This document shows positions 1-57,589 of a DNA stretch of 64,000 bases, in pieces. Location of the stretch: contig CP086569.2 in assembly GCA_009914755.4 (NCBI GenBank), positions 12,640,001-12,704,000 on the forward strand. The letters are read 5' to 3'. Below the pieces are notes generated by a model, which worked only from the letters and a program-made list of their open reading frames with translations, had not been told where the DNA came from and did no database searches. The position numbers and the translations under genes were made by a program. Numbering within the stretch: the first letter of the stretch is position 1; each line of letters begins with the position of its first letter. The stretch is from the human T2T-CHM13v2.0 reference genome, Homo sapiens.

Positions 1-3000
1 GAATGGACTGGAATGGAATAGACTCGAATGGAATGGAATGGAACAAAATCGAATTGAAAGGATTGGAATTGAAAGGAATGGAATGCAATGGAATGGAATG
101 GACTCCAATCGAATGGAGTCAAATAGAATGGAATCGAATGGAAAGGAATTGAATAGAATGGAATTGAATGGAATCAAAAGGTATAGAATGGAATGGAGCG
201 TAATGGAAAGAGATCGTCTGGATTGGAATGGAATAGAACGGACATGAGAGGAATGGACTGGAATGGAATGGACTCGAATGGAATGCACTGGAGTGGAATG
301 GACACGAATGTAACGGAAACGAATAGAATGTAATTTAATGGAAAGTAACAGAATGGAAACAAATCAGATGGAACGAAATGGAATGGAATGGAGTAGAATG
401 GAATACAATCGATTGGAATGGCTTCGAATGAGATGTAATCTAATGGAATGGACTCGAATGGTGTGTACTCAAATGGAATAGAATGGAATGGAATGACATT
501 GAATGGAATGGAATGGACCCAAATGTAATGGAAATGAATGGAATGGAATAAAATAGAATGGACTCAAAAGAATTGGTCTCCAATGGAATTTATTTGAATA
601 GAATGTAATCGAATGGAATGCAATAGTATGGAATGGAATCGAATGTAATGGAATCAAATGGAATTGACTGGAATGTAATGGACTGGAATAAAACTCACTC
701 GAATTTAATGGATTGCAAAGTAATTGCTACAAATGGAATAGAATCGAATGGAATGGACGAAAATAGAATGGACTGGAATACAACGGACTCGAATCTAATA
801 GATTGTAATGTAAGTGATTCGAATGGAATGGAATAGAATGGAATGTAATCAAATGGAATGAAATGGAATTCAATGGAATGGAACAGAATGGAATGAAATG
901 GAATGGAATGGAGTGCAATTGAGTGGAATGCAATAGAATGGAATGGAATCAAATGGATTTGACTGGAATGGAATGGAGTCGAATGGAGTGGACTGGAACA
1001 AAATGGAATCGAAAGGATTGTAAATCAATGGTATGGAATGGAATGGAAAGAATTGGACTCTAACGGAATGGAGTCAAATGGAATGAAATGAAATGGAAGG
1101 GAAAAAAATGAAATGGAATTGAATGGAATCGAAAAGAATAGTGGAATGGAGAGCAATGGAAAGATATCGAATGGAATGAAATGGAAAAAAAATGGAATCA
1201 AATGGAATGGAATCGAGAGGAATGGATTCGAATGAAATGGACTGGAAAGGGAGGTACTCGAATGGAATGGAATGGAACAAAATGGAATGGAACGAATTGG
1301 AGTTGAACTGAATTGAATGGAATGGAAAAGAGTGGAATGTAAGGGATTCGAATTGAATGGATTCGAATGGAATGGAATCAAAAGGAATGGAATCGAATAG
1401 AATGGAAATGAATGGAATCAAAAGAAATAGAATGGAATGGAGTGTAATGGAAAGATATCGAAAGGAATCATATAAAACGGAATGGACTCGAATGGAACAG
1501 ATTGGAATGGAATGGATTCTAATGGCATGGATTGGAGCGGATTGGACTTGAATGGAATGGAAGGGAAAGGAATGGAATGGAATGGCATGAAATGGAATAG
1601 AATGGAATGGAATTGGATGGAACGGAATAGAATGGAATAGAGTTGAATTTAATACAATCGAATGGAAAGGCCTCGAATGGAATAGAATGGACTCGAATGC
1701 AATGGAAACAAATTGAATGGAATGGAATGGAATTGAAAGGAATGGAATGGAAAGGAAAGAGTAGAATGGAATGGAATGCAAACGGATGGAATGGAATGGA
1801 ATGGAATGGAATGGAATGGAATGGAATGGAATGCAATGGAATGGAATCTAAAGGAAAGAACCGCCTAGAATGGCATGGAATGGAATGCAATGAAATCTAA
1901 TAGAAATAACTCGAATGGAATAGAATTAAATGGAATGGAATGGAATGGAATGCATTGGAAAAGAATGGAATCAAATTTAATGGATTGAAATGTAATTGAT
2001 TCGAATAGAATGGAATGTAACCAAAGGGAATGGAATAGAATGTAACCAAATGGAATGGAATGGAATGCAATGGAATGGAATAGAATGAAATGCAATGGAA
2101 TGGAACGGAGTTGAATAGGGTGAAATGGAATTGAATGGAATGGAATCGAAGGGAAAGAAATTGAATTGAATGGAATGGAATCTAAAGGAAAGAAATTGAA
2201 TGGAATGGACTGGAATGGAATGGACTCGAATGGAATGGCCTGGAACTAAATAAAATCGAACGGATTGGAATCGAATGGAATGCAATGGAATGGAATGGAC
2301 TCTATTGGAATGGAGTCAAAAGGAATGGAAACCAATTGAATGGAATTGAATGGGATTAAAAGGGGTAGAATTGAATGGAGTGTAATCAAAGTTATTGATG
2401 GAATGGAATGGCATGGAATGGACTCGAATGGAATAGTTTGGAATGTAGTGGACTCAGATGGAATAGACTGAAGTGAAATGAACTCGAATGGAATGGAAAC
2501 TAGCGGAAGGGAATGGAAGGGAATGGAAAGGAATAGAATGAAATGGAATCAAATGAAATGGAATGGAATGGAATGGAATGGAATGGAATGGAATGGAATG
2601 GAATGGAATGGAATGGAATGGACTCTAATGGAATGGACCCGAAATGAATAGTATAGAATCGAATGGCATCAAATCGAATGTAATGGAATGGAATGGAAGG
2701 GAATGGAATGGACCCTAATGTATTGCACTGGAATGGAGTGGACTCAAATATAATGGACTCAAAAGGAATGGTCTCGAATGGAATTTATTCAAATAGAATG
2801 GAATCAAACGGAATGCAATAGTATGGAATGGAATTGAATGCAATGGGATCGAATGTAATGGACTGGAATTAAATGGACTCGAATAAAATGGAATCGAACG
2901 GATTGGAATGGAATGGAATGGAATGGAATGCACTCGATTGGAATGGAGTCAAATGGAATGGAATGGAATGGAATGGAATCGAAAGGAATAGAATGGAATG

Positions 3001-6000
3001 GAGTGTAAGGAATGATATCAAATGGAAAGGAATGGAATAGACTCGAATGGAATGAACTGGAACGGAATGGACTCGAAAGGAATAGACTGGAGTGGAATGG
3101 ACTCGAATGTCATGTAAGCGAATGGATTGCAATGGAACGGAAAGGTATAGAATGGAATGGAGTCGGATGGAATGGAATGAAATGGAATAGAGTCGAATGG
3201 AATGACATCGAATGGAAAGGAAAGGAACGGAATGGAATAGACCCAAATGTAATGGAATCGAATGGAATGGACTCAAATACAGTGGACTCGTTAGGAATGG
3301 TCTCGAATTGAATTAATTTGAATAGAATGGAATTGAATGGAATGTACTGGAATGGAATGCACTTGAATGGAAAGGACTGGAGTGGAATGGAATAAAATGG
3401 GATGGAAAATAATCGAATGGAATGGAAGGGAAAGGAAATTAATAAAATGGAACGGAATCGGATGGAATGGAAAGGAATGGAATGGAATAGAATCGAATGG
3501 AATGGCATCGGAAGGAATGGAATGCAATGGAATCTGATGGAACGGAATGGTGTGAAATACAAACGAATGGAATGCCTTTTAATGAAATGGAATGGAATGA
3601 ATGGAAAGGAATGGAATGGACTAGAATGGAATGGAATGGACTGCAACTGATTTGACTCGAATGGAAAGGAAATGAATGGAATGGAATGGAAGGGAATGGA
3701 ATGGAATAGAATGGAATGGAATCGGATGGAACGGAATGGATTGGAATGGAGTCGACCGGAATAGAATCGAATGGAATGGAATCAGATGGAATGGAATGGA
3801 ATGGAATGGAATGGAATGGAATGGAATGGAATGGGCTCGAATGGAATGGACTTGAATGGAGTAGAATCGAATGGAATGGCATCAAATGGATTGGAATGGA
3901 ATTTCATGGAACCAAATGTATTGGACTCGAATGGAATGCACTCAAATAGAATAGACTCGAAAGGAATGGTCTCGAATGGAATTTATTTGAATCAAATGAA
4001 ATGCAATAATATGGAATGGAATTGAAAGAACTGGAATGGAATGGAATGGACCAGAATGGATTGGAGTGGAATAGAATGGGCTCGAATGTAATAGAATTTA
4101 ATGTAAACTAATTGAAAGGAATGGAATCGAATGTAATGTAATCAAATGGAATGGAATGGAATGCAATGGAATGGAATAGAATGGAATGCAATGGAATGGA
4201 ATGGAGTGGAACCTAGTGGAAAGGAATTGAATGGAATGAAATCAAATGGAACGGAATCGAATGGAATGGATTGGAATGGAATGGAATCGAATGGATTGGA
4301 CTGGAATAAAATGGAATTGATTGGATTGGAATCAAACGGAATGGAATGTAATGGAATGGAATCGATTTGAATGGAATATAATGGAACAAAACCGAATTGA
4401 ACTGAATCGAAAGAAAGTAAGTGAATGAAATAGAAATGGATAGAATGGAATGGAGTGTAATGAAAAGATATCGAATAGAAAGGAATGGAATGGAATGGAC
4501 GCGAATGGAAAAGAATGGATTGGAATGGATTGGAGTTAAATGGACTCGAATGGAATGGAAAGCAGTGCAATGGAATGGAATGAAATGGAATGGGAAGGAA
4601 TAGAATGGAATGGAATCACATAGAACGGATTGGAATGGAATGGATTCGAATGGAATGGATTCGAATGGAATGGCATCAAATATAATGCAATGGAACGGAA
4701 TTTAATCGAATGGAATGGACTCAAACGGAATAGAATTGAATAGTATGGCATCAAATGGAATGGAATGGAATGGAATGGAATGGAATGGAATGGAATGGAA
4801 TGGAATGGAATGGAATGCAAGTGACCCTAATGTAATGGACTTGAACGGAATATACACAAATAGAATGGAGTAGAATGGAATGGTCTCGAATGGAATTTAT
4901 TCGAATAGAATGGAATTGAATGGAATGCAATAGAATGGAATGGAATCGAATGGAATCGACTGGAATGGAATGGAATGGAATGGAATACAATGGACACGAA
5001 TGTAATGGATTGCAATGCAATTGATTTGAATGGAATGGAATCCAATGGAATGTAATCAAATGGAATGGAAAGGTATATAGTGGAAGGGAATAGAATGGAA
5101 TGGAATGGAACGTAGTGGAATCGAGTGGAATGGAATAGAATAAAATGGAATTGAATGGAGTGCAATGGAATGCAAAGAAGGGGAATAGAGTGGAATGGAA
5201 TCGAATATAATGGAATCTAATGCAATGAAATCAAATGGAATCGACTGGAATGGAATGGACTCGAAACTAATGGACTGTAACAAAATGGAATCGAATGGAT
5301 TGGACTCGAATGGAACATAATGGAATGGATTGGACTCGAATGGAATGCAGTGGAATGGAATGGACTCGAATGGAACAGAAACGATTATAAAGGAATGGAA
5401 GGGAAAGGAAAGGAATAGATTTTAATGGAATAGGATGGAACGGAACGGAACGGAATGCTGTCAAATGGAATAGAATCGAATGGATTGGCATCGATTGGAA
5501 TGGAATGCAATGGACTCGAATGAAATGGACACTGATGGAATAGAATTGAACAGAATGGCATCCAAAGGAATGGAAAGGAATGGAATGGAGTGGAATGGAA
5601 TGGAATGACATGGAGTGGAATGGAATGGAATGGAATGGAATGGAATGGAATGGAATGGAATGGAATGGAATGGACACAAAATTAATGGAATAGAATGGAA
5701 TGGACTCGAAAGGAATGGTCTCGAATGGAATTTATTCAGAAAGAATGGAATAGAAAGCAATGCAATACTATGGAATGGAATCGAATGGAATGGACCAGAA
5801 TGAAATGGACAGGAATAGAACAGATTCGAATGTAATGGATTGCAATGTAATTGATTCGAGTGACTTGGAATCGAATGGAATGTAATCAAATGGAATGGAA
5901 AGGAATGCAATTGAATGGAATAGAATGGAATGCGATGGAATGGAAAGGAATGGAATGGAATCGAGTGGAATGGAATTGAATGGAAGGTTATCGAATGAAA

Positions 6001-9000
6001 TATATTCAAATGGAATGGATTCGAATGGAATAGACTGGAGCAAAATGGAATCGAACGGATTAGAATCGAAAGGAATGGAATGGAATGGAATGGAATGGAG
6101 TCGAATGGAATGGAATCGAATGGAATGGAGTCGAATGGAATGGAATGGAATGGAATAGAATGGAATGGAATGGAATGGAATCGAAAGGAATAGAATGGAA
6201 TGGAGTGTAATAGAAAGATATTGAATGGGATGGAATGGAATGGACTAGAATGGAATGGACTGGAATGGAATGGACTCGAATGGAATGGACTGGAGTGGAA
6301 TGGACTAGAATGGAACGGAAATGAATGCAATGGAATGGAAAGGAATTAAATGGAATGGAATTCGTTGGAACTTAATGGAATGGAATGGAGTCGAATGGAA
6401 TAGAATCGAATGGAATGGCATCGAATGGAATTGAATGGAATGGGAAGGACTCGAACAGAATGCACTCGAATGGAATAGAATCTAATGGAATGGCATCAAA
6501 TGGAATAGAATGGAATGGAATGGAATGGACTCGAATGGATTGGAAAGGAATGGAATGGAATGAAATGGAATTGAAAGGAATAGAATGGAATAGATTTGGA
6601 TGGAATGGAATGGAATGGAATGGAATGGAATGGCATCGAAAGGAATGGAATGGCATCGAAAGGAATGGCATCGAATGGAGTGGAATGGAATGGAATCGAA
6701 TCGAATGGAATGGATTTGAATGGAATAGAATAGAATGGAAAGGGATCGAAACGAATGGAATGGAATGCAATGGAATCGAATAGAATGGAATGGTCCCAAA
6801 TGTAATGGACTCGAACGGAAAGGACTCAAATAGAATGGATTCGAAAGTAATGGTCTCGAATGGAATTTACTCGAGTAGAATGGAATCGAAAGGAATGCAA
6901 TAGCATGTAATGGAATCAAACGGATTGGAATGGAATGGAATGGACGGGAATGTAATGGACTGGAATAGAATGGACTCAAATGTAATGGATTGCAATGTGA
7001 CTGATTTGAATGGAATGGAATCAAATGGAATGTAATCAAATGTAATCAAATTGAATTCAATTGAATGGAAAAGAATGGAATGCAATATAATGGAATGGAG
7101 TGGAATTGAATGGAATGGAATGGAATCGAATAGATTGGACTGGAATGGAATGGACTCGAATATAATGGCCTGGAATAAAATGGAAACAAACGGATTGGAA
7201 TCAATCGGAATGGAATGGAGTGGAATGGAAGAGAATGGATTCGAATGGAATGCAGTCAAAAGGAATGGAAACTAATGGAATGGAATTGAATGGAATCAAA
7301 AAGAATAGAATGGAATGGAGTGACTCGGGAATACATCAAATGGAATGGAATGGACTAGAAATGAATGTACTGGAATGGATTCGACTCAAGTGGAATGAAT
7401 TGGAGTGGAATGGACTCAAACGGAATGGAAACGAATGGAATGGAATGGAAAGGAATAAAATGGAATGGAATGGGATGGAATGGAATGGCATGGAATGGAG
7501 TCGAATGATATACAATCGAATGGAATGGCATATAATTGAATGAAATTAAATGGACTCGAATGGAACAGAATAGAATGGAAAGGCATCGGAGGGAATGGAA
7601 CGGAATGGAATGGAATGGAATTTAATGGAATGGAATGGAAAGAAACAAATGTAATTGACTAAAAAGGAATGGACTCAAATAGAATGGACTCGAAAGAAAT
7701 GGTCTCAAGTGGAATTTATTCGAATAGAATGGAATCCAATGGAATGCAATAGTATGGAATGCAATAGTATGGAATGGAATCGAATGGAATGTACCAGAAT
7801 GGATTGGAGTGGAATAGAACAGACTCGAATGTAATGGATTGCAATGTAATTGATTTGAAAGGAATGGAGTCAAAAGGAATGTAATCAAATGGATGCAATG
7901 GAATGCAAAGAATCCAATAGAATGGAATGCAATGGAATTCAATGGACTGGAATCGAGTGCAATGGAATTGAATGGAAGGGAATCGAATGGAATGGAACTG
8001 AATGAAATGGACTGGATTGGAATGTACTTGAATGGAATTGACTGAAAAATATTTAATTGATCGGACTGAAATCAAATGGAACAGAATGGAATGGAATGGA
8101 ATGGACACTATTTGAATAGAGTAGAATGGAATGTAACCAAATGGAATGGAATCAAATGGAATGGAATTGAATGGAATCGAAAGGAATAGTATGGAATGAA
8201 CTCTAATGGAAAGTTATCGAATGGAAAATAATGGAATACAATGGACTCATATGGAATGCACTGGAATGGAATGTACTGGATTGGAATGGACTCAAATGGA
8301 ATGGAATGGAATGGAATGGAATGGAATGGAATGGAATGGAATGGAATGGAGTGGAATGGAATGGAATAGAATGGAATGGAATCAGATGGAACTTAATGGA
8401 ATGGAATGGAGTCGAATGGAATAGAATCGAATGGAATAACATCAAATGGAATGGAATAGAATGGAATGGAATGGAATAGAATGGAGTGGAATGGAAAACA
8501 CTCAAATGGATTGGACTCAAATGGAATAGAATCGAATGGAATGGCTCGAATGGAAGAGAATGGAATGGAATGGAATGGACTTGAATGGAATGGAAGTGAA
8601 TGCATTAGAATGAAATGGAATGGAAAGGAATAGAATGGAATGGAATCGGATGACACGGAAAGGATTGGAATGGATTCGAATGAAATAGAAATAAATGGAA
8701 TGGCATCGAATGGAATGGAATGTAATATACTCGAATGGAATGGACTCAAATGGAGTAGAATACAATAGAATGGCATCAAAAGGAAAGGAATGGAATGGAA
8801 TGAAATAGAATGGAACCAAATGTAATGGAATCAAATGGAATGGACTCAAATAGAATTGACTCGAAAGGTATGGTTTAGAATGGAATTTATTTGAATAGAA
8901 TGGAATCGAATGGAATGCAACAGTAAAGAATGGTATCAAATGGAATGGAATCAAATGGAATGGACTGGAATGGAACGGACTGAAATAGAACAGACTCGAA

Positions 9001-12000
9001 CATAATGGATGGCAATTTAATTGATTTGAATGGAATGGAATTGAATGGAATGTAACCAAATTGAATGGAATGGAATGCATTTGAATGGAATAGAATGGAA
9101 TGGATCGGAGTGGAATCGAATGGAATGGAATCGAATGAAACGTAATTGAATGGAATGGAATTGAATCGAATGGACTGGAATGGAATGAACTCGAATGTAA
9201 TGAACTGGATAAAGTGGAAACGAACGGATTGGAATCGTACAGAATGGAATGGAATGGAATGGAAGAGACTGTTCTCGAATGGAATGGAGTCGAAAGGAAT
9301 GGAACTGAATGGAATGTAATTGAATGGAATCGAAAAGAATAGAATGGAATGGAACGTTATGGAAAGATATTGAATGGAATGGCATGGACGCGAATGGAAT
9401 GGACTGGAATGGAGTGAACTCGAATGGAATGGACTGGAATGGATTAGACTCGAATGGAATGGAAACGAATGAAATGGAATGGAAAGGAGTAGAATAGAAT
9501 GGAATTGGATGGAATGGAATGGAATGGAATAGAGTCAAATGGAATAGAATCGAATGGAATGGCATCGAATGGAATGGAACGGAATGTAACGGACTCGAGT
9601 GGAATGGACTCTAATGGAATAGAGTAGAATGAAATGGCATTGAATGGAATGCAAAGGAATGCAATGGATTGCAATGGAATGGACCCAAATGTATAGGAAT
9701 CCAATGGAATGGACTCAAATATAATGGATTCAAAAGGAATGGTCCCAAATATAATTTATTCGAATAGAATGGAATCAAAAGGAATGCAATAGTATGGTAT
9801 GGAATCAAATGGAAAGGAATCGAATGGAATTGACCAGAATGGAATGGACTGAAATAGAAAGGACTCGAATGTAATGGATTGAAATGTAATTGATTCGAAC
9901 TCCTTGGAATCGAATGGAATATAATCAAATGGAATGGAATGGAATGCAATGGGAAGGAATAGAATGGAATGCAATGGAATGGAACTGTGTACAATTGAGT
10001 GGAATGCAATCGAATGGAATGGAATCGATGGAATGAACTGGCATGGAAAGAACTCGAAAGGAAAGGACTGAAAAAAATGGAATCGAACAGATTGGAATTG
10101 AATGGAACAGAATGGAAAAAATGGAACGGAATGGAATGGAATGGATTCTAATGGAATGCAGTCAAATTGAATGAAATCAAATGGAATGGAATCGTACAGA
10201 ATGGAATTGAATGGAATCAAAAGGAAAACAATGGAATGGAGTATAACAGAAAGATATTGAATGTAATGGAATGGAATAGAATGGAGTCGAATGGAATGGC
10301 ACGGAGTGGAATTCACTCGAATGGAATGGACTGGAATGGAATCGAATCCAATGGAATGAACTGGAGAGGAATGAAATCTAATGGAAAGGAAATGAATGGA
10401 ATGGAATGGAATGGAAAGGAATGGAGTGGAAAGGATTATAATGGAAACGAATCGGATGGAACAGAATCGAATGGAGTCGAATTTAATAGAATCAATTGGA
10501 ATGACATCGAATATAATGGAATGGAATGGAATGGAATTCATTGGAGTGGAGTTGACTCTAATGTAATGGAAACGAATGGAATGGAATGGAATGGAATGGA
10601 AGGGAAAAGAATACAATGGAATGGAATCGGATGGAAGATAATGGAAAGGCGTCAAATTAAATAGAATCAATTGGAATGGCATCGAATGGAATGGAATGGA
10701 ATGGAATGGAATGGAATGGAATGGAATGGAATTAAATGGACTCGCATGGAATAGAATTGAATGGTATGTCATTGAATGGAATGGAACGGAATGGAATGGA
10801 ATGGAATGGAATGGAATGGAATGGAATGGAATGGAATGGAATGGAATAGAATGGAATGGAATGGTACCAAAAGTAATGGACTCAAATGGAATGGACTCAA
10901 ATAGAAAGGACGCGAAAGCAATGGTCTCGAATGGAATATATTCAAATAGAATGGAATTGAACGAAATGCAATAGTGTGGTATGGAATCTAATGGAATGGA
11001 CAAACATGGAATGGACGGGAATAGAACGGACTCAAATGCCATGGATAGCATGGTAATTGATTCGAATGGAATGGAATTGAATGGAATGGAATCAAATGGA
11101 AAGGAATGGAATACAATGGAATGGAATAGAATGGAATGCAATGGAATGGAACGAGGTGAAATTGATTGGAATGGAATCGAAAGGAATGGAATCGAATGGA
11201 TTGGGATTGATTGGAATAGACAGGAATGGAATGGACTCGAATGTAATTTAATGGAACAAAATGAAATCAAACGGATTGGAACCGAACAAAACGGAATGGA
11301 AGGTAATGCAATGTCCTCGAATGGAATGGAGTCGAATGGAAGGGAATCAAATGGAATGGAATTGAATGGAATGGTACTGAATGGAATCGAACGGAATTTA
11401 ATTTAATGGAGTGTAAAGCAAAGATATCGAATCCAATGGAACAGAATGGAATTGACTTGAATGGAATGGAATGGAAAGGAATGGAAAGGAATGGAATGGA
11501 GTCGAATGGAATGGACTGCAGTGCAATGGACTCGAATGGAATGGAAACGAATGGAATGGAATGTAACGGAATGGAATTGAATACAATGGAAACGAATAGA
11601 TAGAATGGAAAGTAAAGGAAATATATCGAATCTAATAGAAAGGAATGGAATGGACTCGAATGGAAAGGAATGGAATAGAATGGAATCGAATGTCATGGAC
11701 TGGAGTGGAACGGTCTCGATTGGAATGGAAAATAATGGAATGGAATGGATTGGAATGGAAAGGAATAGAATGGAATGGAATCGTATTGAATGGAATGGAA
11801 AGGAATGGAGTCAAATGAAATAGAATCTAATGGAATGCAATCAAATGTAATGGAATGCAATGGATTCTAATGGAATGGACTCAAGTGCAATACAATAGAA
11901 TCGAATGGCATGGAATGGGATGAAATAGAATGGAATACAATAAAATGGAAAGGAGTGGAACCGAGGGGAATGGAATCGAACAGAATGGAATGGAATGGAA

Positions 12001-15000
12001 TCGAATGGAATGGAATGGAATGGAATGGAATGGAATGGAATGGAATGGAATGGAATGGGTTAGAATGCAATGGAATCGGATCGAATGGAATGGAATGGAA
12101 TGGAGTTGAATGGAATAGATTCGAATGAAATGCCAACGAATGGTATGGAATGGAATGGATTGGACTCAAATGGAATAGAATTGAACTGAGTGGCATCGAA
12201 TGGAATGGAATGGAATGGAATGGAATGGAATGGAATGGAATGGAATGGAATGGAATGGACCAAAACGTAATGGACTCTAATGCAATGGACTCAAATAGAA
12301 TGGACACAAAAGGAAGGGTCTCGAATGGAATTTATTGAAAAAGAATGGAATCAAATTGCATGCGATAGTATGGAATGGAATCAAATGGAATGGAATTAAT
12401 TGGAATGGACCAGAATGGAATGGACTGGAATATAACGGACTCGAATGTAATGGATTGCAGTGTATTTGATTCAAAAGGAATGGAATTGAACGGTATGTAA
12501 TTAAATGGAAAGAAATGGAATGCAATCGAATGGAATAGAATGGAATGCAATGGAATGGAACCTAGTGTAATCGAGTTGAATGGAATTGAATGGAATGGAA
12601 TCAAATGGAATGGAGTGGAATTCAATGGACTCGATTGGAATGGACTGGAACAAAATAGAATCGAACGCATTGGAATCGAACTGAATGGAATGGAATGGAA
12701 AAGAATGGACGTCAATGCAATGGAGTCGAATGGAATGGAACCGAATGCAATGGAATTGAAGGGAATTGAAAGGAATAGAATAGAATGGAGTGTAATGGAA
12801 AGATATCGAATGGAATGGAAAGAAGTGGAATCGACTCAAATGAAATCGTGTGGAACGAAATGGACTCGAATGGAATTGAATGGAACAAAGTGGACTCGAA
12901 GGGAATGGACTGGAATGGAATGGATTAGAAAGGAATGGAAACGAACGGAATGGAATGGAATAGAATGGAATGGAATCAGATGGAATGAAATGGAATGAAA
13001 TGGAGTAGAATGGAATAGAATCGAATGCAATGGCATCGGATAGAATGGAATGGAATGGAATCTAATGTACTTAAATGGAATGGACTCGAATGAAATAGAA
13101 TAGAATGGAATGGCATCGAATGGAATTTACTGGAAGAGAGATTAATGGAAAGATATTGAATAGAAAGGAATGGAATGAACTCAAATGGAATGGACTGGAA
13201 TGGAATGGACTCGAATGGAATGGACTGGAATGGAATGGTCTGGAATGGAATGGACTGCAGAGGAATGGTCTCGAATGGAATGGAAACGAATGGAATGGAA
13301 TTGAATGGAATGGACATTAAAGGAATAAAATGGAAGGTATCAATGGAACATAATGCAATGGAATAGATTTGAATGGAATACTTTCAAAAGGAATGGCATT
13401 GAATGGAATGGAATGGAAAGGACTCGAACGGAAAGGACTCGAATGGAATTGAATAGAATGGAATGGCATCGAATGGAATGGAATGGAAGAGAGTGTAATT
13501 GAAAGATATCGAATGGAATGGAATGGACTCGAATGGAATGGCCTGGAATGGAATGAACTCGAATGGAATGGACTGGAGTGGGATGGACTCGAATGGAAAG
13601 GAAACGAATTGAATAGAATGGAATGGAATGGAAACAATACAATGAAATTGAATCGAATGGAACTGAATGTAATGGAATGGAGTCGAATAGAATAGAATCG
13701 AATTGAATGACATCGAATGGAATGGAATGAAATGGAATGGAATGGAATGGAATGGAATGGAATGGAATGGAATGGAATGGAAAGGACTTCAAAGGTGTGG
13801 ACTCTAATGGAATAGAATATAATGGAATGGCATCGAATGCAAGGGAATGGAATGGAACCCAATGTATTGGACTCGAATGGAATGGACTCCAATAGAATGG
13901 ATTCGAATGGAGTGGTCTCAAATTGAATTTATTCAAATAGAATGGAATCGAATGGAATTCAATAGAATGGAACGGAATCGAACGGATTTGATTCAAACGG
14001 AATGGAATGCAATGGAATGGAGTCGAATGGAATGGAATTGAATTGAATGGAATCGAATAGAATGGAACTCAATGGAATCGAAAGGAATACAATGGAATGG
14101 AGTGTAATGGAAAGATATCAAATGGAATTGAATGGACTCGGTGGAATGGACTGGAACAGAACTGACTCGAATGGAATGGAGTGGAGTGGAATGGACTCTA
14201 ATGTAATGGAAACTAATGGAATGGAATGGAATGGAATGGAATGGAATGGAATGGAATGGAATGGAATGGAAAAGAATAGAATGGAATGGAATCGGATGGA
14301 ACAGAATGGAATGGAGTTGAATTTAATAGAATCAATTGGAATGACATCGAATATAATGGAATGGAATGGAATGGAATGGACTTGACTGGAGTGGAATGGA
14401 CTCTAATGTAATGGAAACGAATGGAATGGAATGGAATGGAAGGGAAAAGAATAGAATGGAATGGAATCGGATGGAATGGAATGGAATGGAGTCGAATTGA
14501 ATAGAATCAATAGGAATGGCATCGAATGGAATGGAATGGAATGAAATGAAATGGACACGAATGCAATGGCCTCAAATGGAATAGAATCGAATTGTATGGC
14601 ATCGAATGGAATGGAATGGAATGGAACGGAACGGAACGGAACGGAATGGAATGGAATGGAATGGAATGGAATGGAATGGAATGGAATGGAATCGACCCAA
14701 AAGTAATGGACTCAAATGGAATGGACTCAAATAGAAAGGACTCGAAAGCAATGGTCTCGAATGGAATTTATTCGAATAGAATGGAATCGAATGGAATGCA
14801 ATAGTATGGAATGGAATGAAATGGAATGGACACGAATGGAATTGACTGGAATAGAACGGACTTGAATGCCATGGATAGCAATGTAATCGATTCGAATTGA
14901 ATGGAATCAAATGGAATGTAATCAAATGGAATGGAATGGAATGCAATGGAATGGAATAGAATGGAATGCAATGGAATGGAACGGAGTGAAATCGAGTGGA

Positions 15001-16469
15001 ACAGAATTGAATGGAATAGAATCGAATGGATTGGAATTGATTGGAATAGACAGGAATGCAATGGACTTGAATGGAATTTACTGGAACAAAATGGAATCAA
15101 ACGGATTGGAACTGAACGAAACAGAATGGAATGTAATGGAATGGCCTCGAATGGAATGGAGTTGAATGGAAGGGAATCGATGGAATGGAATCGAATGGAA
15201 TGGAATGGAATGGAATCGAAAGGAATTGAATTTAATGGAGTGTAAAGCAAATATATCGAATCCAATGGAATGGAATGGAATGGACTCGAATGGAATGGAA
15301 TGGAATGGACTCGAATGGAATGGAATGGAATGGACTTGAATGGAATGGACTGGAGTGGAATGGACTCGAATGGAATGGAAAAGAATGGAATGGAATGGAA
15401 TGGAATGGAATGGAATGGAATGGAATGGAATGGAATGGAATGGAATGGAAATGAATGGAATGGAATGGAATAGGATGGAACTAAATGGAATGGAATGGAG
15501 TCGAATGGAGAGGAGTTGAATGGAATGGCATTGAATGGAGTGGAATGGAATGGACTCAAAAGGAATGAACTCGAATGGAATAGAATAGAATGGAATGGCA
15601 TCAAATGGAATGGAACAGAAGGGAGTGTAAAGGCAAGATATCGAATGGAATGGAATGGAATGGAATGGAATGGAATGGAATGGAATGGAATTGACTCGAA
15701 TGGAATGGACTGGAATGGAATGGACTATAATGGAATGGCCCGGAGTGGAATGGACTCGAGTGGAATTGACTGGAATGGAATTGACTTGAATGGTATGGAC
15801 TGGAGTGGAATGGTCTCGAATGGAATGGAAACAAATGGAACGAAATGGATTGGAATGGAAAGGAAAGGAATCGGAAGGAACAGAATGGAGTGGAATGGAG
15901 TCGAAAGAAATAGAATTGAATGGAATGCAATCGAATGGAATGGAATGCAATGGACTCGAATGGAATGGACTCGCATGGAATAGAATTGAATGGAATGGCA
16001 TGGAATGGAATGGAATAGAATGGAATGCAATAAATGCAAAGGAGTGGAATCAAGTGGAATGGAATGGAATGGAATGGAATGGAATGGAATGGAATGGAAT
16101 GGAAGGGAATGGACCCAAATGGAATGGATTCGAGTGGAATGTAACCGACGAATGGAATGGAATTGAATGCAATCGAAACGAATAGATAGAATGGAAAGTA
16201 ATGGAAATATATCGAATCTAATAGAATGGAATGGAATGGACTCGAATGGAATGGACTGGAGTGGAACGGTCTCGAATGGAATGGAATGGATTGGAATGGA
16301 AAGGAATAGAATGGAATGGAATCATATGGAATGGAATGGAACAGAATGAGTCAAAACGGAATAGAATCAAGTGGAATGCAATCGAATGGAATGGAATACA
16401 ATGGACTCGAATGGAATGGATTCTAATGGAATAGAATATAATGGAATGGCATGGAATGGAATGAAATAG
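1..16469 (+). repeat. Pericentromeric (GGAAT)n satellite array, HSat3-type (human satellite II/III family); window starts inside the array
   Basis: Over 16 kb of tandem GGAAT/GAATG pentamers. There are many perfect runs of 9-13 units (e.g. 1790-1840, 2560-2625, 3770-3830, 4755-4815, 5615-5680, 10795-10855, 12000-12060, 15395-15465). Diverged variants such as ggactcgaatgg and ggcatcgaatgg are interspersed. The HSat2-diagnostic aatcatcgaatgg motif is absent. ORF-track peptides MEWNGMEWNG (plus) and HSIPFHSIPF (minus) are periodic translations of GGAAT/ATTCC. Confidence 0.93.
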
Positions 16470-17445: not shown

Positions 17446-17960
17446 TATTACCCACTTGTGTTAGTTTCTTAAGGCTGCTGTGACAAATCACCACAAACTG
17501 AGTGGCTCCAAACAACAGATATGTATTGTCTCACTGTTCTGGACACCAGACAGCTGAAATCAAAGGTCAGCAGGGCCACATGCTCTCTGAAGCTTAGAGG
17601 GAGAATCCTCCTTTCTCCCTCGCTGGCTCTGATGGTTTTCCAGTGAGCCTCAGCATTCCTTGGCTTGCAGCCCCAGCACTTTAATCTCTGCTTTTATTGT
17701 CACATGACATTCTTCCCTTGCATCTATCTCTTCTACTCTTCTTATAAGGACACCAGTCATTGGAGTAAGACCACCCGAATTCAGTATGGCCTCATCACAA
17801 CTTAATTACATCTGCACAGACCTTATTTCCAAACAAGGTCACATTCACAGGCACCAGGGATTAGGATTTCAACATATCTTTTTACGGGACACAATTCAAC
17901 TGATAACACCTTCCACCTTCCACTCCCTAATATAACCCTTCATATAGGCACTGTTGCCTC
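17446..17960 (+). mobile_element. Old interspersed repeat, family not assigned; same family as copies at 26745-27120 and 63795-64000
   Basis: Shares the widespread human repeat motifs 'caaactgagtggct..aaacaacag..ttctcac..ttctgga' and 'ttcttataaggacaccagtcat...ggatt..caacata' with the other two copies in this window. Confidence 0.4.
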
Positions 17961-19068
17961 TCACCCAGAAATCATGAATTTTGAGCTCTGTGCCATGACC
18001 GGACAAGACTTTTGTGTTGATTCCCTTAGGAAGGATATTTATGTATTCTGTATGACTGAAGGAGATTGAGCCAAATATTTGGTGTCTAGAATGGTGGGCT
18101 ACAGTAGATATTAGAGATCCCCACCAATATTTCCAGTTGTCTTCCATCCAGTCAAACAATAAGAATAGAACTCCCTGCTCCCATGAAACTAGATGTGACT
18201 ATGAAACTTGCTTTAAGCCAATGTAATGTGAACAGAAGTGATACATTTTATTTCTGGATACTAAAATTTAAGAAGCAAGGTATAATTTTCCACTTTTTCT
18301 TTATCTTCCATGTTGGCAAGTAACTTTCCAGATTGTGAAAATTATGTAATAAAAGTCCTTATGTGAAGACAGCATTAAGAATCCTGCCAAACTGACTTGT
18401 ACTGAATATGTAGCATGAGTAATAAATGAATCCTGATAACAGTAAGACATTGAGTTGTACATGTATACACCCTATAACACAGCAGTTTCATGCATACATC
18501 AGAAAGATTCTTTCACATGTTCATTAAGGAAACATGCACAAGTATTTTAGTTAATAATATTATTTGCAGCAATAAATGGCAATCAGCTCAAATGCTCACC
18601 AATTGTAGGTTGAAATAAATAAATAACTTTTATATACATGAACTGAACAACATACAGCAATGAAAATGAATGGATTATAAACACAAATATCAATATGGAT
18701 AATTTTTAAAACATCATATTAAGCAGTTATAGAAAAACTACACACGTTTGATTGAAATTTTATAATTCAGTCTGAATTAATGGACATATTGCATAAGGAT
18801 ATAAAAATCTATAGTAATAACAGTGGAAAACACCAGGGAACAAAATTCAGCTAATTACTACCTCTGGTGGATATGAAGTATAATGCAATTGAAGAATGCA
18901 CACAGAGAGCTCCTACAGTATGATAATTCATTTTCTAACATTGTTTGCAGGCACATGATATTTGTTTTATTATTGGTCTTCAAACCCCACATATATGCTT
19001 TTATGTACTTTTTGCAATCTATACTTCACAACTGTTAAAAATAAAGCAAATCTTAGGTAAAATATGTT

Positions 19069-19612
19069 TTATATATATATAAATATATATTATATATATT
19101 TTTATATATAAATATATATTATATATATTTTTATATATAATATATATTATATATATTTTTATATATAATTATATAATATATATTTAAGTATAAATATATA
19201 ATAAATATAAATATATTTTTATATAATATATTTTATGTATTTATATATAATATATTCTATATAATATATATTTTATATTATATTCTATATAATATATATT
19301 TTATATTATATTCTATATAATATATATTTTATATTATATTATATACTATATATTTTATATTATATTATATAAGATATATTTTATATTATATAATATAATA
19401 TATATTTAATATTATATTATATAAGATATATTTTATATTATATTATATATAATATATATTTTATATTATGTTATATGTAATATATATTTTATAATATATT
19501 ATATGTAAGATATATTTTATATTATATATTATATATATTTTTATATTATATTATATATATTATATTATATATATTTTATATATTATATATAAATTTTATA
19601 TATAATATATAA
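19069..19612. repeat. AT-rich minisatellite (~545 bp, essentially 100% A+T) with ~28-33 bp repeat units
   Basis: Early units are 'ataaatatatattatatatatttttatat' (x3). Later units are 'tatattctatataatatatattttatat' (x3) and variants 'tatattatataagatatattttatat'. There are no G or C for ~540 bp. Confidence 0.9.
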
Positions 19613-20735
19613 AGCACATTATAGAATGCCCTTGTAGAAGTTGATCTATAGAAGTTAATTTATACAAGTTAACTTCTAGCAATGTTAATTCGTGGTTAAG
19701 AAAGTAATTCCAAGGCTATTTTTTCTGTAAAATGAAGTATAAATTTTTTGCATAAGTAATTATTTTCTCACATCTAACTCTCTGCATCTCTTAGCTTTAT
19801 TAAAGCAGGGCTGGCCTTTCACTTTTTAAATTTTTGTCCCTTTCCCTTTATGGGATTAAAGAGGAAAAATAGAAAATCACAAATATATGAAGGCCTCTTT
19901 TGGGAAAGGGGGATTTTCTTCCCATGCTAGTGAAGCAGCTACTCGATCAGTATATTTCCATTTTGTATCTTTATATGTTTTTACTATTTTAATGGTTTTT
20001 CCTTAAAATGTTTACCATAAATACTTCCTTGTAGCAAGATAAAAATTAATATCTAACCACCTTCCACAATGTTTTAGAACTTTTTAACTCTCATATCTTT
20101 CTTGTTGAATTTTAATTATCATATCCTCCCCTGCTCGTTTTAAGAATATTGGTTCATTCCATTTTTAAACTCTATAAATTATATTAACAATACTAGTATA
20201 AATTTACTTACAGGTTTGACAATTCCTTTGCACCCATACTCCTTGGATCTCATAAAATTCTTCCTCAGATGCTTTGATTTCTTCCTAAAGCATCATTTGG
20301 AATTTCCTTTAGTGAGAATCTGTCGGTGGTAAACTCATATTTTTCTATTTTTGAAAATGTTTTCATTTTGCACTAGGTCCTAAAAGAGATTTCCCGGGCG
20401 TGTAATTCGAGATTAGTAGTTATTTTCACTTAGCACACTGAAGATATTAATCCATTCTTTTCAAGATTCCATTGTTACTGTGCAGAACACCTCTAGCAAT
20501 CTATTTCCATCATCTGTCTTGTCTCCCCATCTGCTTTTATGCTCTTCCGTTTGTCTTTGGTGTTTCATTATAAATCATGAGTTTTTCTTTATTTATTCTC
20601 CTGTGAGCATATTGTTGTGGAAATTTTTCAGCTATTGACGTTTAAGATTTTGCCCTTCTATCATTCTCCCTATGTCCTCCTTTGATGAGAGGCCTGTTAG
20701 ATATTCCCACTCTGTCCTCCATAGCTCTTAACCTC

Positions 20736-21822: not shown

Positions 21823-21845
21823 CATTTTTGTTTATTGTTTATATC

Positions 21846-24840
<2,995 letters not shown>

Positions 24841-54066: not shown

Positions 54067-54137
54067 TTTTTATTTTATTTTATTTTATTTTATTTTATTT
54101 TATTTTATTTTATTTTATTTTATTTTATTTTATTTAT
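54067..54137. repeat. (ATTTT)n pentanucleotide microsatellite, ~14 units
   Basis: 'ttttattttattttattttatttt...' as an uninterrupted run. Confidence 0.95.
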
Positions 54138-55889: not shown

Positions 55890-56945
55890 GCGGCCTCTGT
55901 GCAGGTCGGTTGGCCTGGATGGGGCCTGAAGCATCACGTGCATATTGCTTTTGTGCAGCTGGAGCCTCTGGAGCCCATTGAGGTAGAGGCAGACAGTGAG
56001 GAGGCCTGCAGCCTGGAAGACTTTCCAGGGGTGGTGTTTGAGGGCTCCAATTCCATTAAATTCTGTGCGGTCATTTCTGTGTTTAGAAAGGCCAGTGGGA
56101 AGTGACTGATTTTGGTAACTCATTGTCCTTTTCCAGCTCCTGCTTAATGTCTAGAGACACAGGCAATTCCAGTGCTGGCTCTGGTACATGCTGCCTGCTC
56201 CGGAGCCAGAGTGACTTGCAGCCCTGGGCCTCCCACACATCGATCCAGCACCACGGCCAGCTCCAGAGCCACAGTGCTCCTGCCCCGGTCCTGGGACTGC
56301 GAAGAACCAGCCCGGCGAGGCGTTGCCTGACATCGTGGTGTCTGTTGCCCCCACTCGCCTCAGCACTGGAGCTGGAAGAGGCTCCCCAGGAGAGGCGGCG
56401 GCCAGTGGGGCTCCGGCCAGCAGGCCTCGCGCCGCTCTCGGTCCTGGGCGAAGGGAGAGCCGCGGAGGCGGAGAGCAGGGCTGGCGGGCCGGCTCCTGGG
56501 CCTTGCTGAAGAGCTTCCCGCGTGCCAGCCTCGGCCCCAGCACGACCTGAACAACGTCTGTTTCTCGCAAGCCGCCACCCGGCCTATGGGCGCGAACTCC
56601 ACCAGCTCGCCCCCTCCACGTCCCCGCCTGGCCTGCCGCTGATGGGGGCGGACGGGGCGGAATTCCAGCAACTCCTCCTCCTGCTCCAGGACGTGGTCTC
56701 CTCCTCCGGCGACTGGGACCTGCCCTTAGCTGAGCATCTGAGCTGGGGGCCTCTGAGGTGCTGCCCAGGACGGGCTCTTCCTGGTTGGCAGGCAGGTGGG
56801 AATGTATTTTCCAAAGGGCACAGGCCCAGGCAGGACCTAGCAGCTGTACCTTGGGGTCACCATTGGCCCCATCCTGCCCAATGACTTATTTATATTGTTA
56901 TTACTTCAAATTTCTATAACTTTTAAATAAAGAATTTGGCTTTTT
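55890..56945 (+). other. GC-rich, CpG-dense ~1 kb segment (CpG-island-like), with a possible splice-acceptor at ~56135 and an AATAAA at ~56925; candidate promoter/CpG island or GC-rich terminal exon of an unidentified transcript
   Basis: Dense CpG content between ~56230 and 56700 (e.g. 'ggcctcgcgccgctctcggtcctgggcgaagggagagccgcggaggcggagagcagggctggcgggccggctcc' and 'gggggcggacggggcggaattcc'). A polypyrimidine/AG site 'ctcattgtccttttccag|ctcc' sits at ~56118-56139. 'ttttaaataaagaatttggctttttaac' is at ~56920-56947. Long ORFs in all six frames here reflect GC-richness and are not evidence of coding. Confidence 0.35.
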
Positions 56946-57589
56946 AACTAAAACTCTCATGCCTTCTTTAACACCCTAGTGTCAGATGGAATTGTTGAGG
57001 CTAACATGAAAATCGCCCACAGTTTCCTCTTTTTGTTGTGGATGTTTCCATGAATGAATTGTGATCTGATCAACTGTTACTGTACCTTTCAGATTTAGGA
57101 CAGATTCCTCTCCCAGCACCTAGAGATCCCTGTTCTGTCTGTATTGAGGACAAAGATTAGCTAGAAGGAATCTTAAATCTCCTTTACAAATGTAAAAACA
57201 GATTTGCTGTCTATGTGCTTTGCCAAACAGAGAGAGACAGAGGCCATTGAGACATGATGAAAACAGCTTCTTCTGAGATGGGGGAAAAGAAAAATATGAA
57301 ATATGAACAACCACAGTAGGTCCAACAACCTTTCCACAGAGCCAGGCACTCAGGAGCCACCTGTCATGTCTTAGGCCATTTCATTCCTACAAGAACCTCA
57401 CTGAGATTCATCTTACTACTCCACTTTTCAGAGGTGCAAGTTGAGGCTCAGAAAGCTGCAGTGGCATCCCTAGACACAGCTAGTAGGTAGTAGGGTGTGC
57501 CTTGAAAGAAACAGACACTCACCTGCTGAACAGCTGCTCCAGGTGTAGCAGGACAAGCTGCAGACAAAACCCCTCAGATACTGAGTTAA

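What the first reader, a model, noticed from the sequence alone, without database searches (positions are those of the whole stretch)
19069..19612. 545 bp pure-AT minisatellite with ~30 bp units, resembling AT-rich rare-fragile-site and palindromic AT-rich repeats
Bases 19069-19612 contain essentially no G or C. They are organised as tandem units of about 28-33 bp, for example 'ataaatatatattatatatatttttatat' x3 and 'tatattctatataatatatattttatat' x3, with many TATA self-complementary cores. From established knowledge, AT-rich minisatellites of similar unit size underlie rare fragile sites such as FRA16B and FRA10B. Long AT-rich near-palindromes (PATRRs) form cruciforms and mediate recurrent translocations. 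Such tracts are typically length-polymorphic and unstable. This one lies only 2.6 kb from a pericentromeric satellite edge.
Basis: partly seen in the sequence, partly recalled or inferred. Interest (0 to 1): 0.5.

Follow-up and report, generated by a model that had tools for sequence, protein, structure and literature searches.

The report
Ordinary AT-rich minisatellite beside satellite DNA
This is a real 544-bp stretch of almost pure A/T DNA made of about 20 tandem units of roughly 28 bp; it is a common kind of primate repeat that folds about as readily, base for base, as the FRA16B fragile-site repeat, but it is far too short to be a fragile site and is not a translocation-prone palindrome.

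Summary
Window 19069-19612 is 544 bp with only 12 G/C. It holds about 20 head-to-tail units of 24-35 bp (mode 28, some 26), and every full unit ends in TTTT(T) on the + strand. It starts 2.6 kb from the end of a 16.5-kb (GGAAT)n satellite.

- It belongs to the same physical class as FRA16B-type AT-rich minisatellites and the "AT-dinucleotide-rich sequences" of common fragile sites. AT/TA dinucleotides make up 72.7%. It is the only twist-flexibility peak in the 64 kb. Its single-strand folding energy is -86.5 kcal/mol, against -94/-90 for a 544-nt FRA16B array.
- It shows no sequence similarity to the FRA16B 33-mer beyond shared composition (z about 0).
- It is 10-100 times shorter than alleles that cause fragility.
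- It is not a PATRR. All units point the same way (22 TTTT, 0 AAAA). The best quasi-palindrome is only 77% complementary. Hairpins recover 38% of the duplex energy, against 98% for a true palindrome.

Most likely it is a neutrally evolving, slippage-prone repeat. Three identical adjacent 28-mers point to recent turnover. Length polymorphism could not be tested. Interest is low.

The parts
19069..19612 (+). The whole AT-rich minisatellite: 544 bp, 97.8% A+T, about 20 head-to-tail units. The T-rich strand is the + strand.
   Evidence: 12 G/C only; TRF period 28, 18.9 copies, score 415; 22 TTTT and 0 AAAA.
19071..19160 (+). Left block: three units of 33, 29 and 28 bp with consensus ATATATA(A)ATATATATTATATATATTTTT, each ending in TTTTT.
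19161..19250 (+). Degenerate middle segment with irregular units of 14-40 bp, carrying AAG and ATG variants.
   Evidence: unit alignment.
19251..19518 (+). Central regular block of 10 units with consensus ATATTATATT(A/C)TATA(TA)ATATATATTTT. Start-to-start spacings run 28, 28, 26, 26, 26, 26, 28, 28, 28. It includes three 100% identical 28-mers (19252-19338) and an AAG-variant unit recurring 52 bp apart.
   Evidence: (family D2, 11 copies at 84-100% identity).
19519..19612 (+). Degenerate right end with units of 15-35 bp. It contains the best local hairpin, with 17-18-bp perfect arms at 19576-19612.
19196..19583 (.). Imperfect quasi-palindrome centred at 19389/19390, with 194-nt arms, 77% complementarity and no spacer. 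It is a by-product of nearly self-complementary units laid out in a symmetrical 28/26/28 length pattern.
   Evidence: I1; score 106, against a Markov-2 null of 53 +/- 8 and a unit-order-shuffle null of 66 +/- 11 (maximum 99). Perfect pairing at the centre extends only about 10 bp.
1..16467 (+). Context: a (GGAAT)n classical satellite array of HSat2/3 type. All 1142 exact GGAAT copies lie on the + strand. Its edge is 2.6 kb from the tract.

Best explanation
The tract is a non-coding, AT-rich minisatellite (a variable-number-type tandem repeat) in a primate, most likely human, pericentromeric junction region.

Origin (inferred): it probably grew from a (TA)n-like, T-interrupted microsatellite. 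A 7-bp sub-period (TTATATA) is nested inside a 28-bp unit. The array is then maintained and reshuffled by replication slippage and unequal sister-chromatid exchange.

Behaviour (inferred from experiments on FRA16B and FRA16C/D repeats): each unit is nearly self-complementary and the duplex is very weak. When the tract is single-stranded during replication, it can fold into many alternative imperfect A-T hairpins. These can stall polymerases and produce gains and losses of whole units.

In physical terms it resembles a slightly long 'normal' (unexpanded) FRA16B-type allele, or a short AT-dinucleotide-rich flexibility island. At 544 bp it is expected to be a locally unstable, probably length-polymorphic repeat with no dedicated cellular function. 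It is not expected to be a cytogenetic fragile site or a cruciform-driven translocation hotspot.

Shown here: the anatomy, the composition and the relative folding energetics. Inferred: the slippage mechanism, the polymorphism and the replication stalling.
For: Anatomy:
- 544 bp with 12 G/C.
- About 20 same-orientation units, with a 7-bp sub-period.

Recent unit-level turnover:
- Three 100% identical adjacent 28-mers share a private C variant.
- An AAG-variant unit recurs 52 bp (two units) apart.
- Unit identity declines weakly with distance, from 0.78 for neighbours to 0.70 at ten units apart.

Structure potential:
- DNA minimum free energy is -86.5 (+) and -86.2 (-) kcal/mol, against dinucleotide shuffles of -74.1 +/- 3.45 and -77.7 +/- 3.4, with no shuffle folding as well. 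Mononucleotide shuffles give -67.2 +/- 3.8.
- Among 117 tiled 544-nt windows, only two G+C-richer windows (56033, 63% G+C, in the G+C-rich stretch; 59841, 47% G+C) fold more stably.
- Duplex stability is -0.83 kcal/mol per bp, against -1.22 to -1.55 in controls. Hairpins recover 38% of the duplex energy, against 8-25% in controls.

Equivalence to FRA16B repeat DNA per unit length:
- Minimum free energy -94.5/-90.1, ratio 0.40, AT/TA fraction 0.731 for a 544-nt FRA16B array, against -86.5/-86.2, 0.38 and 0.727 here.

AT-dinucleotide-rich sequence (AT-DRS) criteria from PMC6765107:
- It is the only twist-flexibility peak above 13.7 degrees in the 64 kb (19015-19666, maximum 16.5).
- AT/TA is 72.7%, against 61-71% in the FRA16C fragments.
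- Length exceeds 250 bp.

Experimental precedent: a 921-bp FRA16B fragment forms secondary structure, stalls replication, and gains or loses blocks of repeat sequence (a 33-bp expansion; deletions of 99 to 378 bp) (PMC2875025).
Against: - No allelic or orthologous sequence of the tract could be retrieved, so instability and polymorphism are inferred, not shown.
- The folding excess over composition-matched shuffles is modest at 12-19 kcal/mol. Most of it comes from unit content rather than arrangement: unit-order shuffles give -83.2 +/- 2.0.
- Local perfect inverted repeats (maximum arm 17-18 bp) are no longer than an order-2 Markov null gives.
- The decline of unit identity with distance is weak.
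- A structural or chromatin role next to the satellite cannot be excluded by sequence analysis alone.
Confidence: 0.8

Rival explanations
1. It is a palindromic AT-rich repeat (PATRR). It would extrude a cruciform from duplex DNA, be cut at its centre, and mediate recurrent translocations.
For: It is AT-rich and PATRR-sized: 544 bp, against about 450 bp for PATRR11 and about 590 bp for PATRR22. A zero-spacer quasi-palindrome with 194-nt arms scores above both nulls: 106, against a maximum of 74 for Markov-2 and 99 for unit-order shuffles.
Against: - The arms are only 77% complementary.
- All T-runs lie on one strand (22 TTTT, 0 AAAA), so the array is direct, not inverted.
- Perfect pairing at the centre extends only about 10 bp. 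In PATRR22, a 9-nt spacer plus four mismatches near the centre already greatly reduces cruciform extrusion (PMC1851657).
- Intrastrand folding recovers 38% of the duplex energy, a penalty of about 279 kcal/mol. A palindrome of the same composition recovers 98%, a penalty of about 10.
Confidence: 0.03
2. It is the unexpanded allele of a rare distamycin A/BrdU-type fragile site. Some individuals would carry multi-kilobase expansions of this same repeat that appear as a chromosome gap.
For: It has the same physical class and per-length folding as FRA16B. Its copy number (about 20) is at or above the normal FRA16B range of 7-12 copies. A review states that various AT-rich motifs may become fragile once expanded (PMC9714581). 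Identical adjacent units show ongoing duplication.
Against: - There is no similarity to the FRA16B unit beyond composition, z about 0.
- Immediate adjacency to a (GGAAT)n pericentromeric satellite does not fit the map positions 16q22.1 or 10q25.2.
- AT-rich tracts of this size are, from general knowledge, numerous in the human genome, while mapped AT-minisatellite fragile sites number two.
- No expanded allele was seen, and none could be searched for.
Confidence: 0.05
3. It has a chromatin or replication role. It would act as a base-unpairing or matrix-attachment-type region, an AT-hook (HMGA-type) protein binding site, a DNA-unwinding element, or a boundary between the satellite heterochromatin and the chromosome arm.
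For: It is the least stable duplex in the window at -0.83 kcal/mol per bp. It is the only flexibility peak in 64 kb. It lies 2.6 kb from the satellite edge. Regularly spaced T4-5 runs are typical minor-groove ligand sites; this last point is general knowledge and was not tested.
Against: There is no evidence of conservation or selection. The anatomy, with degenerate ends, identical neighbouring units and variable unit length, looks like neutral turnover. The tools available give no binding, replication-origin or chromatin data.
Confidence: 0.07
4. It is a small outlying block of the AT-rich classical satellite HSat1A (SAR), as might be expected near a pericentromere.
For: It is AT-rich and tandemly repeated, and it lies close to another classical satellite.
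Against: HSat1A has a 42-bp (17+25) monomer and about 77% A+T (PMC9909926). This tract has a 26-28-bp period and 97.8% A+T. The HSat1A consensus sequence itself was not available for alignment.
Confidence: 0.02

Closest known systems
FRA16B 33-bp AT-rich minisatellite, normal (unexpanded) alleles
   Same: Both are head-to-tail AT-rich minisatellites with units of about 30 bp. The AT/TA dinucleotide fraction is nearly identical (0.727 against 0.731). Single-strand folding energy per length is nearly identical (-86.5 against -94.5/-90.1 kcal/mol per 544 nt). The hairpin-to-duplex ratio is 0.38 against 0.40. The size is that of a normal allele: 7-12 copies for FRA16B, about 20 here.
   Different: The unit is 26-29 bp, not 33. 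Similarity to the 33-mer does not exceed the composition null, z about 0. The genomic setting differs: this tract is next to a (GGAAT)n satellite. No expansion or fragility is known here.
AT-dinucleotide-rich sequences (AT-DRS, or flexibility peaks) of common fragile sites such as FRA16C and FRA16D
   Same: It passes the operational criteria: twist flexibility above 13.7 degrees, AT/TA content of at least about 60%, and length above 250 bp. [quoted passage not shown]
   Different: It is 544 bp, against the 3.4 kb shown to create a fragile site and the class of 3 kb or more enriched at fragile sites. Only 3 consecutive 300-nt segments fall below -40 kcal/mol, against the threshold of at least 7. 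It stands alone rather than in a cluster of such islands.
Palindromic AT-rich repeats (PATRR11, PATRR22, PATRR17, PATRR8)
   Same: Both are AT-rich, a few hundred bp long, and structure-prone.
   Different: PATRRs are near-perfect palindromes whose central symmetry is critical. This tract is a direct array with 77% pseudo-symmetry and a cruciform penalty of about 279 kcal/mol.
Classical AT-rich VNTR markers (APOB 3' hypervariable region, COL2A1 3' VNTR). Recalled from general knowledge, not checked here.
   Same: These are several-hundred-bp arrays of almost pure A/T units, about 15-34 bp each and containing T-runs. They are polymorphic by whole-unit gain and loss and have no known function or fragility. 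In size and likely behaviour they are probably the closest analogues.
   Different: They have different unit sequences and different loci. Their polymorphism is documented, whereas this tract's is not.

Membership tests
AT-rich minisatellite (generic VNTR-type tandem repeat) | Head-to-tail tandem units of about 10-100 bp in several copies, more than chance would give | tested here: met
   TRF gives period 28, 18.9 copies and score 415. Eleven in-register copies show 84-100% identity. Autocorrelation z is 3.9-5.7 against a Markov-2 null.
AT-rich minisatellite (generic VNTR-type tandem repeat) | A+T content above about 90% | tested here: met
   97.8% A+T, i.e. 12 G/C in 544 bp.
AT-rich minisatellite (generic VNTR-type tandem repeat) | Copy-number polymorphism between haplotypes | not testable with these tools
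   Logan contigs that match the left flank stop short of the tract. Five other flanking-ORF look-ups and two metagenome scans found nothing.
Rare fragile-site repeats FRA16B / FRA10B | Unit homologous to the FRA16B 33-mer (or the FRA10B ~42-mer) | tested here: not met
   Local alignment of a FRA16B x6 array to the tract scores 168, against a null of 168.6 +/- 9.9. The FRA10B unit sequence was not obtainable, so that half was not tested.
Rare fragile-site repeats FRA16B / FRA10B | Expansion to several kb or more (FRA10B above 5 kb; FRA16B up to about 2000 copies) | tested here: not met
   The tract is 544 bp with about 20 units in this haplotype.
Rare fragile-site repeats FRA16B / FRA10B | Structure-forming potential comparable to FRA16B repeat DNA | tested here: met
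   Minimum free energy is -86.5/-86.2, against -94.5/-90.1 for a 544-nt FRA16B array. The hairpin-to-duplex ratio is 0.38 against 0.40.
Rare fragile-site repeats FRA16B / FRA10B | Cytogenetic gap inducible by distamycin A or BrdU | not testable with these tools
   This needs cytogenetics.
PATRR (palindromic AT-rich repeat) | Near-perfect palindrome of several hundred bp | tested here: not met
   The best arms are 194 nt at 77% complementarity. There are 22 TTTT and 0 AAAA. Hairpin energy is 38% of duplex energy, against 98% for a true palindrome.
PATRR (palindromic AT-rich repeat) | Perfect symmetry at the centre (needed for cruciform extrusion) | tested here: not met
   Only about 10 bp pair perfectly around 19389/19390. 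The requirement is taken from PMC1851657.
PATRR (palindromic AT-rich repeat) | High A+T content | tested here: met
   97.8% A+T.
AT-dinucleotide-rich sequence / flexibility peak (common-fragile-site element) | Twist-angle flexibility above 13.7 degrees in 100-bp windows over more than 200-250 bp | tested here: met
   There is a single peak at 19015-19666 with maximum 16.47, and none elsewhere in the 64 kb. The dinucleotide table was recalled from memory (Sarai et al. 1989 values).
AT-dinucleotide-rich sequence / flexibility peak (common-fragile-site element) | AT/TA dinucleotides at about 60% or more | tested here: met
   72.7%, against 13.9% in the rest of the window.
AT-dinucleotide-rich sequence / flexibility peak (common-fragile-site element) | Length (3 kb or more) or energy run (at least 7 consecutive 300-nt segments below -40 kcal/mol) associated with actual fragility | tested here: not met
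   544 bp, with 3 consecutive segments at -47.3, -40.2 and -41.9. ViennaRNA DNA parameters were used rather than Mfold.
HSat1A (SAR) classical satellite | 42-bp (17+25) monomer with about 77% A+T | tested here: not met
   The period is 26-28 bp and A+T is 97.8%.
Long pure (TA)n microsatellite (cruciform-forming, helicase-dependent class) | Long uninterrupted TA dinucleotide run | tested here: not met
   The longest pure TA run is 11 nt.

The most novel reading that the evidence does not exclude
The tract may be the common short allele of a so-far unmapped expandable AT-rich minisatellite at a pericentromeric heterochromatin-euchromatin junction. Rare multi-kilobase expansions, or its AT-hook-binding and easily unwound character, would then contribute to breakage, rearrangement or boundary behaviour at the edge of the HSat3-type array.
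Probability: 0.05. Interest if true: 0.55.

Novelty: new member of a known kind. Interest (0 to 1): 0.15.

Why it matters
It matters little on present evidence. It is one more AT-rich minisatellite of a well-described class, and automated tandem-repeat annotation of the genome would almost certainly list it already.

Its practical relevance is as a probable length-polymorphic marker. It is also a likely trouble spot for sequencing and assembly right next to a pericentromeric satellite.

It would become interesting only if population long-read data showed large expansions, or if breakpoints clustered at it. In that case it would be a third molecular example of an AT-minisatellite fragile site, and one sitting at a heterochromatin boundary.

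Tried and rejected
1. Retrieving other haplotypes or orthologues to measure length variation.
- Exact-protein look-ups of seven ORFs flanking the tract gave one hit.
- The only hit was the 87-aa ORF at 17896-18159. It gave two short Logan contigs. L001 is 100% identical over 1615 bp. L002 has 3 mismatches in about 700 bp. Both end before the tract.
- Exact-pattern scans of JGI metagenome contigs with the left and right junction flanks each found 0 hits.

2. Rfam scan of the whole window: no family reached its threshold.

3. Literature search for the conserved 22-mer of the unit: 0 papers.

4. Search for open-access sources on the APOB and COL2A1 AT-rich minisatellites: nothing relevant. That comparison therefore rests on memory.

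5. Supplementary sequences of the FRA16C AT1/AT2 fragments: not held. A direct fold comparison with them was not possible, so a synthetic FRA16B array was used instead.

6. FRA10B unit sequence: not found in accessible text.

7. PATRR reading: rejected on unit orientation, arm identity, central symmetry and energetics.

8. HSat1A reading: rejected on period and composition.

9. Local-cruciform enrichment: rejected. Perfect inverted repeats are no longer or more numerous than an order-2 Markov null gives.

Full report
**What is there**

Window 19069-19612 is 544 bp containing T 297, A 235, G 8 and C 4. No other 544-bp window in the 64 kb has fewer than 153 G/C. Tandem Repeats Finder reports one array at 19074-19611 with period 28, 18.9 copies, 78% matches and score 415. 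Nested descriptions give periods of 7 (TTATATA) and 2. Autocorrelation exceeds an order-2 Markov null at lags 5, 7, 21, 28 and 54.

Cutting after each T-run gives about 20 units:
- A left block of three units (33, 29 and 28 bp), ATATATA(A)ATATATATTATATATATTTTT.
- A degenerate middle segment.
- A regular central block of ten units with start-to-start spacings of 28, 28, 26, 26, 26, 26, 28, 28, 28 bp, consensus ATATTATATT(A/C)TATA(TA)ATATATATTTT.
- A degenerate right end.

Three adjacent 28-mers (19252-19338) are 100% identical and share a private C. An AAG-variant unit recurs 52 bp apart.

**Context**

Bases 1-16467 are a (GGAAT)n satellite with all copies on one strand, so the stated 2.6-kb distance is right. 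Downstream lie Alu-like and L1 ORF2 sequences. The window is therefore primate, most probably human. A Logan contig from a public sequencing run is 100% identical over 1615 bp of the left flank. Rfam finds nothing in the window.

**Is it structure-prone?**

Yes, but modestly.
- Folded as single-stranded DNA, the tract gives -86.5 kcal/mol on the + strand and -86.2 on the - strand. Dinucleotide shuffles give -74.1 +/- 3.45 (z -3.6) and -77.7 +/- 3.4 (z -2.5), and none folds as well.
- Mononucleotide shuffles give -67.2 +/- 3.8.
- Unit-order shuffles give -83.2 +/- 2.0, so most of the excess lies in the units themselves, not their arrangement.
- Of 117 tiled 544-nt windows, only two G+C-richer windows (63% and 47% G+C) fold more stably.
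- The duplex is very weak at -0.83 kcal/mol per bp, against -1.22 to -1.55 in controls. Hairpins on the two strands recover 38% of the duplex energy, against 8-25% in controls.

**Is it a PATRR?**

No. PATRRs are near-perfect palindromes in which central symmetry is decisive. In PATRR22, a 9-nt spacer plus four mismatches near the centre already greatly reduces cruciform extrusion (PMC1851657). Here:
- All T-runs are on one strand, with 22 TTTT and 0 AAAA. The array is direct, not inverted.
- The best pseudo-palindrome is centred at 19389/19390 with 194-nt arms and is only 77% complementary.
- It does exceed the nulls: score 106, against a maximum of 74 for Markov-2 and 99 for unit-order shuffles. 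The explanation is that nearly self-complementary units sit in a symmetrical 28/26/28 length pattern.
- Perfect pairing at the centre extends about 10 bp.
- A perfect palindrome of the same composition would fold at about -220 kcal/mol per strand and recover 98% of the duplex energy, a penalty of about 10 kcal/mol. The tract's penalty is about 279 kcal/mol.
- Local perfect inverted repeats with spacers of 4 nt or less reach 17-18-bp arms. This is within the order-2 Markov expectation (mean maximum 15.9, 95th percentile 21), although the other 44 kb of the window has none with arms of 10 bp or more.

**Is it FRA16B/FRA10B-like?**

In physical class, yes. In sequence, size and locus, no.
- The FRA16B unit is ATATATTATATATTATATCTAATAATATATC/ATA. 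Normal alleles carry 7-12 copies and expanded alleles up to about 2000 (PMC2875025).
- FRA10B has an approximately 42-bp unit and is fragile above 5 kb (PMC9714581).
- A 544-nt synthetic FRA16B array folds at -94.5/-90.1 kcal/mol, with a hairpin-to-duplex ratio of 0.40 and an AT/TA fraction of 0.731. The tract's values are -86.5/-86.2, 0.38 and 0.727. Base for base, the two are equivalent.
- Aligning a FRA16B array to the tract scores 168, against 168.6 +/- 9.9 for composition-matched random sequence. There is no specific relatedness.
- The tract is 10-100 times shorter than fragile alleles.
- Its position beside a pericentromeric satellite does not fit 16q22.1 or 10q25.2.

**AT-dinucleotide-rich sequence (AT-DRS) criteria** (PMC6765107)

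The tract passes the descriptive criteria:
- It is the only twist-flexibility peak above 13.7 degrees in the 64 kb (19015-19666, maximum 16.5). The dinucleotide table was recalled from memory.
- Its AT/TA fraction is 72.7%, against 61-71% in the FRA16C fragments.
- It is longer than 250 bp.

It fails the criteria tied to actual fragility:
- It is well under 3 kb.
- Only 3 consecutive 300-nt segments fall below -40 kcal/mol, not the 7 required.

**Other families considered**
- HSat1A has a 42-bp unit and about 77% A+T. It is rejected on period and composition.
- The long pure (TA)n class is rejected, because the longest pure TA run is 11 nt.

**Mechanism**

The most likely account (inferred) is a neutrally evolving AT-rich minisatellite. 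It grew from a T-interrupted TA-type microsatellite, with a 7-bp sub-period inside a 28-bp unit. It is reshuffled by replication slippage and unequal sister-chromatid exchange. Alternative imperfect A-T hairpins on single-stranded template promote gain and loss of whole units, much as a cloned 921-bp FRA16B fragment gained and lost repeat sequence (PMC2875025). The identical neighbouring units and the two-unit recurrence of a variant are direct signs of recent duplication. I put this at about 0.8.

Rival readings:
- Latent fragile-site allele: about 0.05.
- Chromatin, boundary or unwinding role: about 0.07.
- PATRR: about 0.03.
- HSat1A fragment: about 0.02.

**What could not be done**

It could not be examined. 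Seven exact-ORF look-ups around the tract yielded only two short contigs, both ending before it. Both metagenome scans with junction flanks found nothing. The chromosome was not identified.

**Verdict**

This is a real but ordinary feature. It is an AT-rich minisatellite of a well-known kind. Physically it is FRA16B-like and unexpanded, and it is not palindromic. Interest is 0.15.

Noticed in passing
window 21827-22731 and 23936-24840: A large inverted repeat with 905-nt arms, 96% complementarity and a 1204-nt spacer. It is built from L1 ORF2 C-terminal and 3'-end sequence (near-identical 123-aa ORFs on opposite strands, plus a 424-aa ORF2 fragment between them). It is far more palindromic than the AT tract and lies only 2.2 kb distal of it.
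   Followed up: partly
window 1-16467: A 16.5-kb (GGAAT)n classical-satellite array. All 1142 exact GGAAT copies are on the + strand and GC skew is strong (about +0.6). It ends abruptly at about 16467 in unique sequence.
   Followed up: partly
window 54068-54135: A perfect (TTTTA)13.6 pentanucleotide repeat with 100% matches. AT-rich pentanucleotide repeats near Alu elements are described as a highly mutable class (bioRxiv 10.1101/2024.08.07.607105).
   Followed up: no
window about 56000-57000: A G+C-rich stretch with GC 0.597 in a 1-kb bin. CpG observed/expected is only about 0.40 over 55.5-57.5 kb, so it is at best a weak CpG island. It contains the most stably folding 544-nt window.
   Followed up: no
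L002 (ERR3341999 contig) against window about 17750-18450: A public-run contig matches the left flank with 3 substitutions in about 700 bp, while another (L001, SRR33449189) is 100% identical. It could be an allelic variant, a paralogous copy or a close primate; this was not resolved.
   Followed up: partly
window 19635-19672: A short 14-bp tandem repeat (TAGAAGTTAATCTA, 2.7 copies) lies immediately to the right of the AT tract.
   Followed up: no
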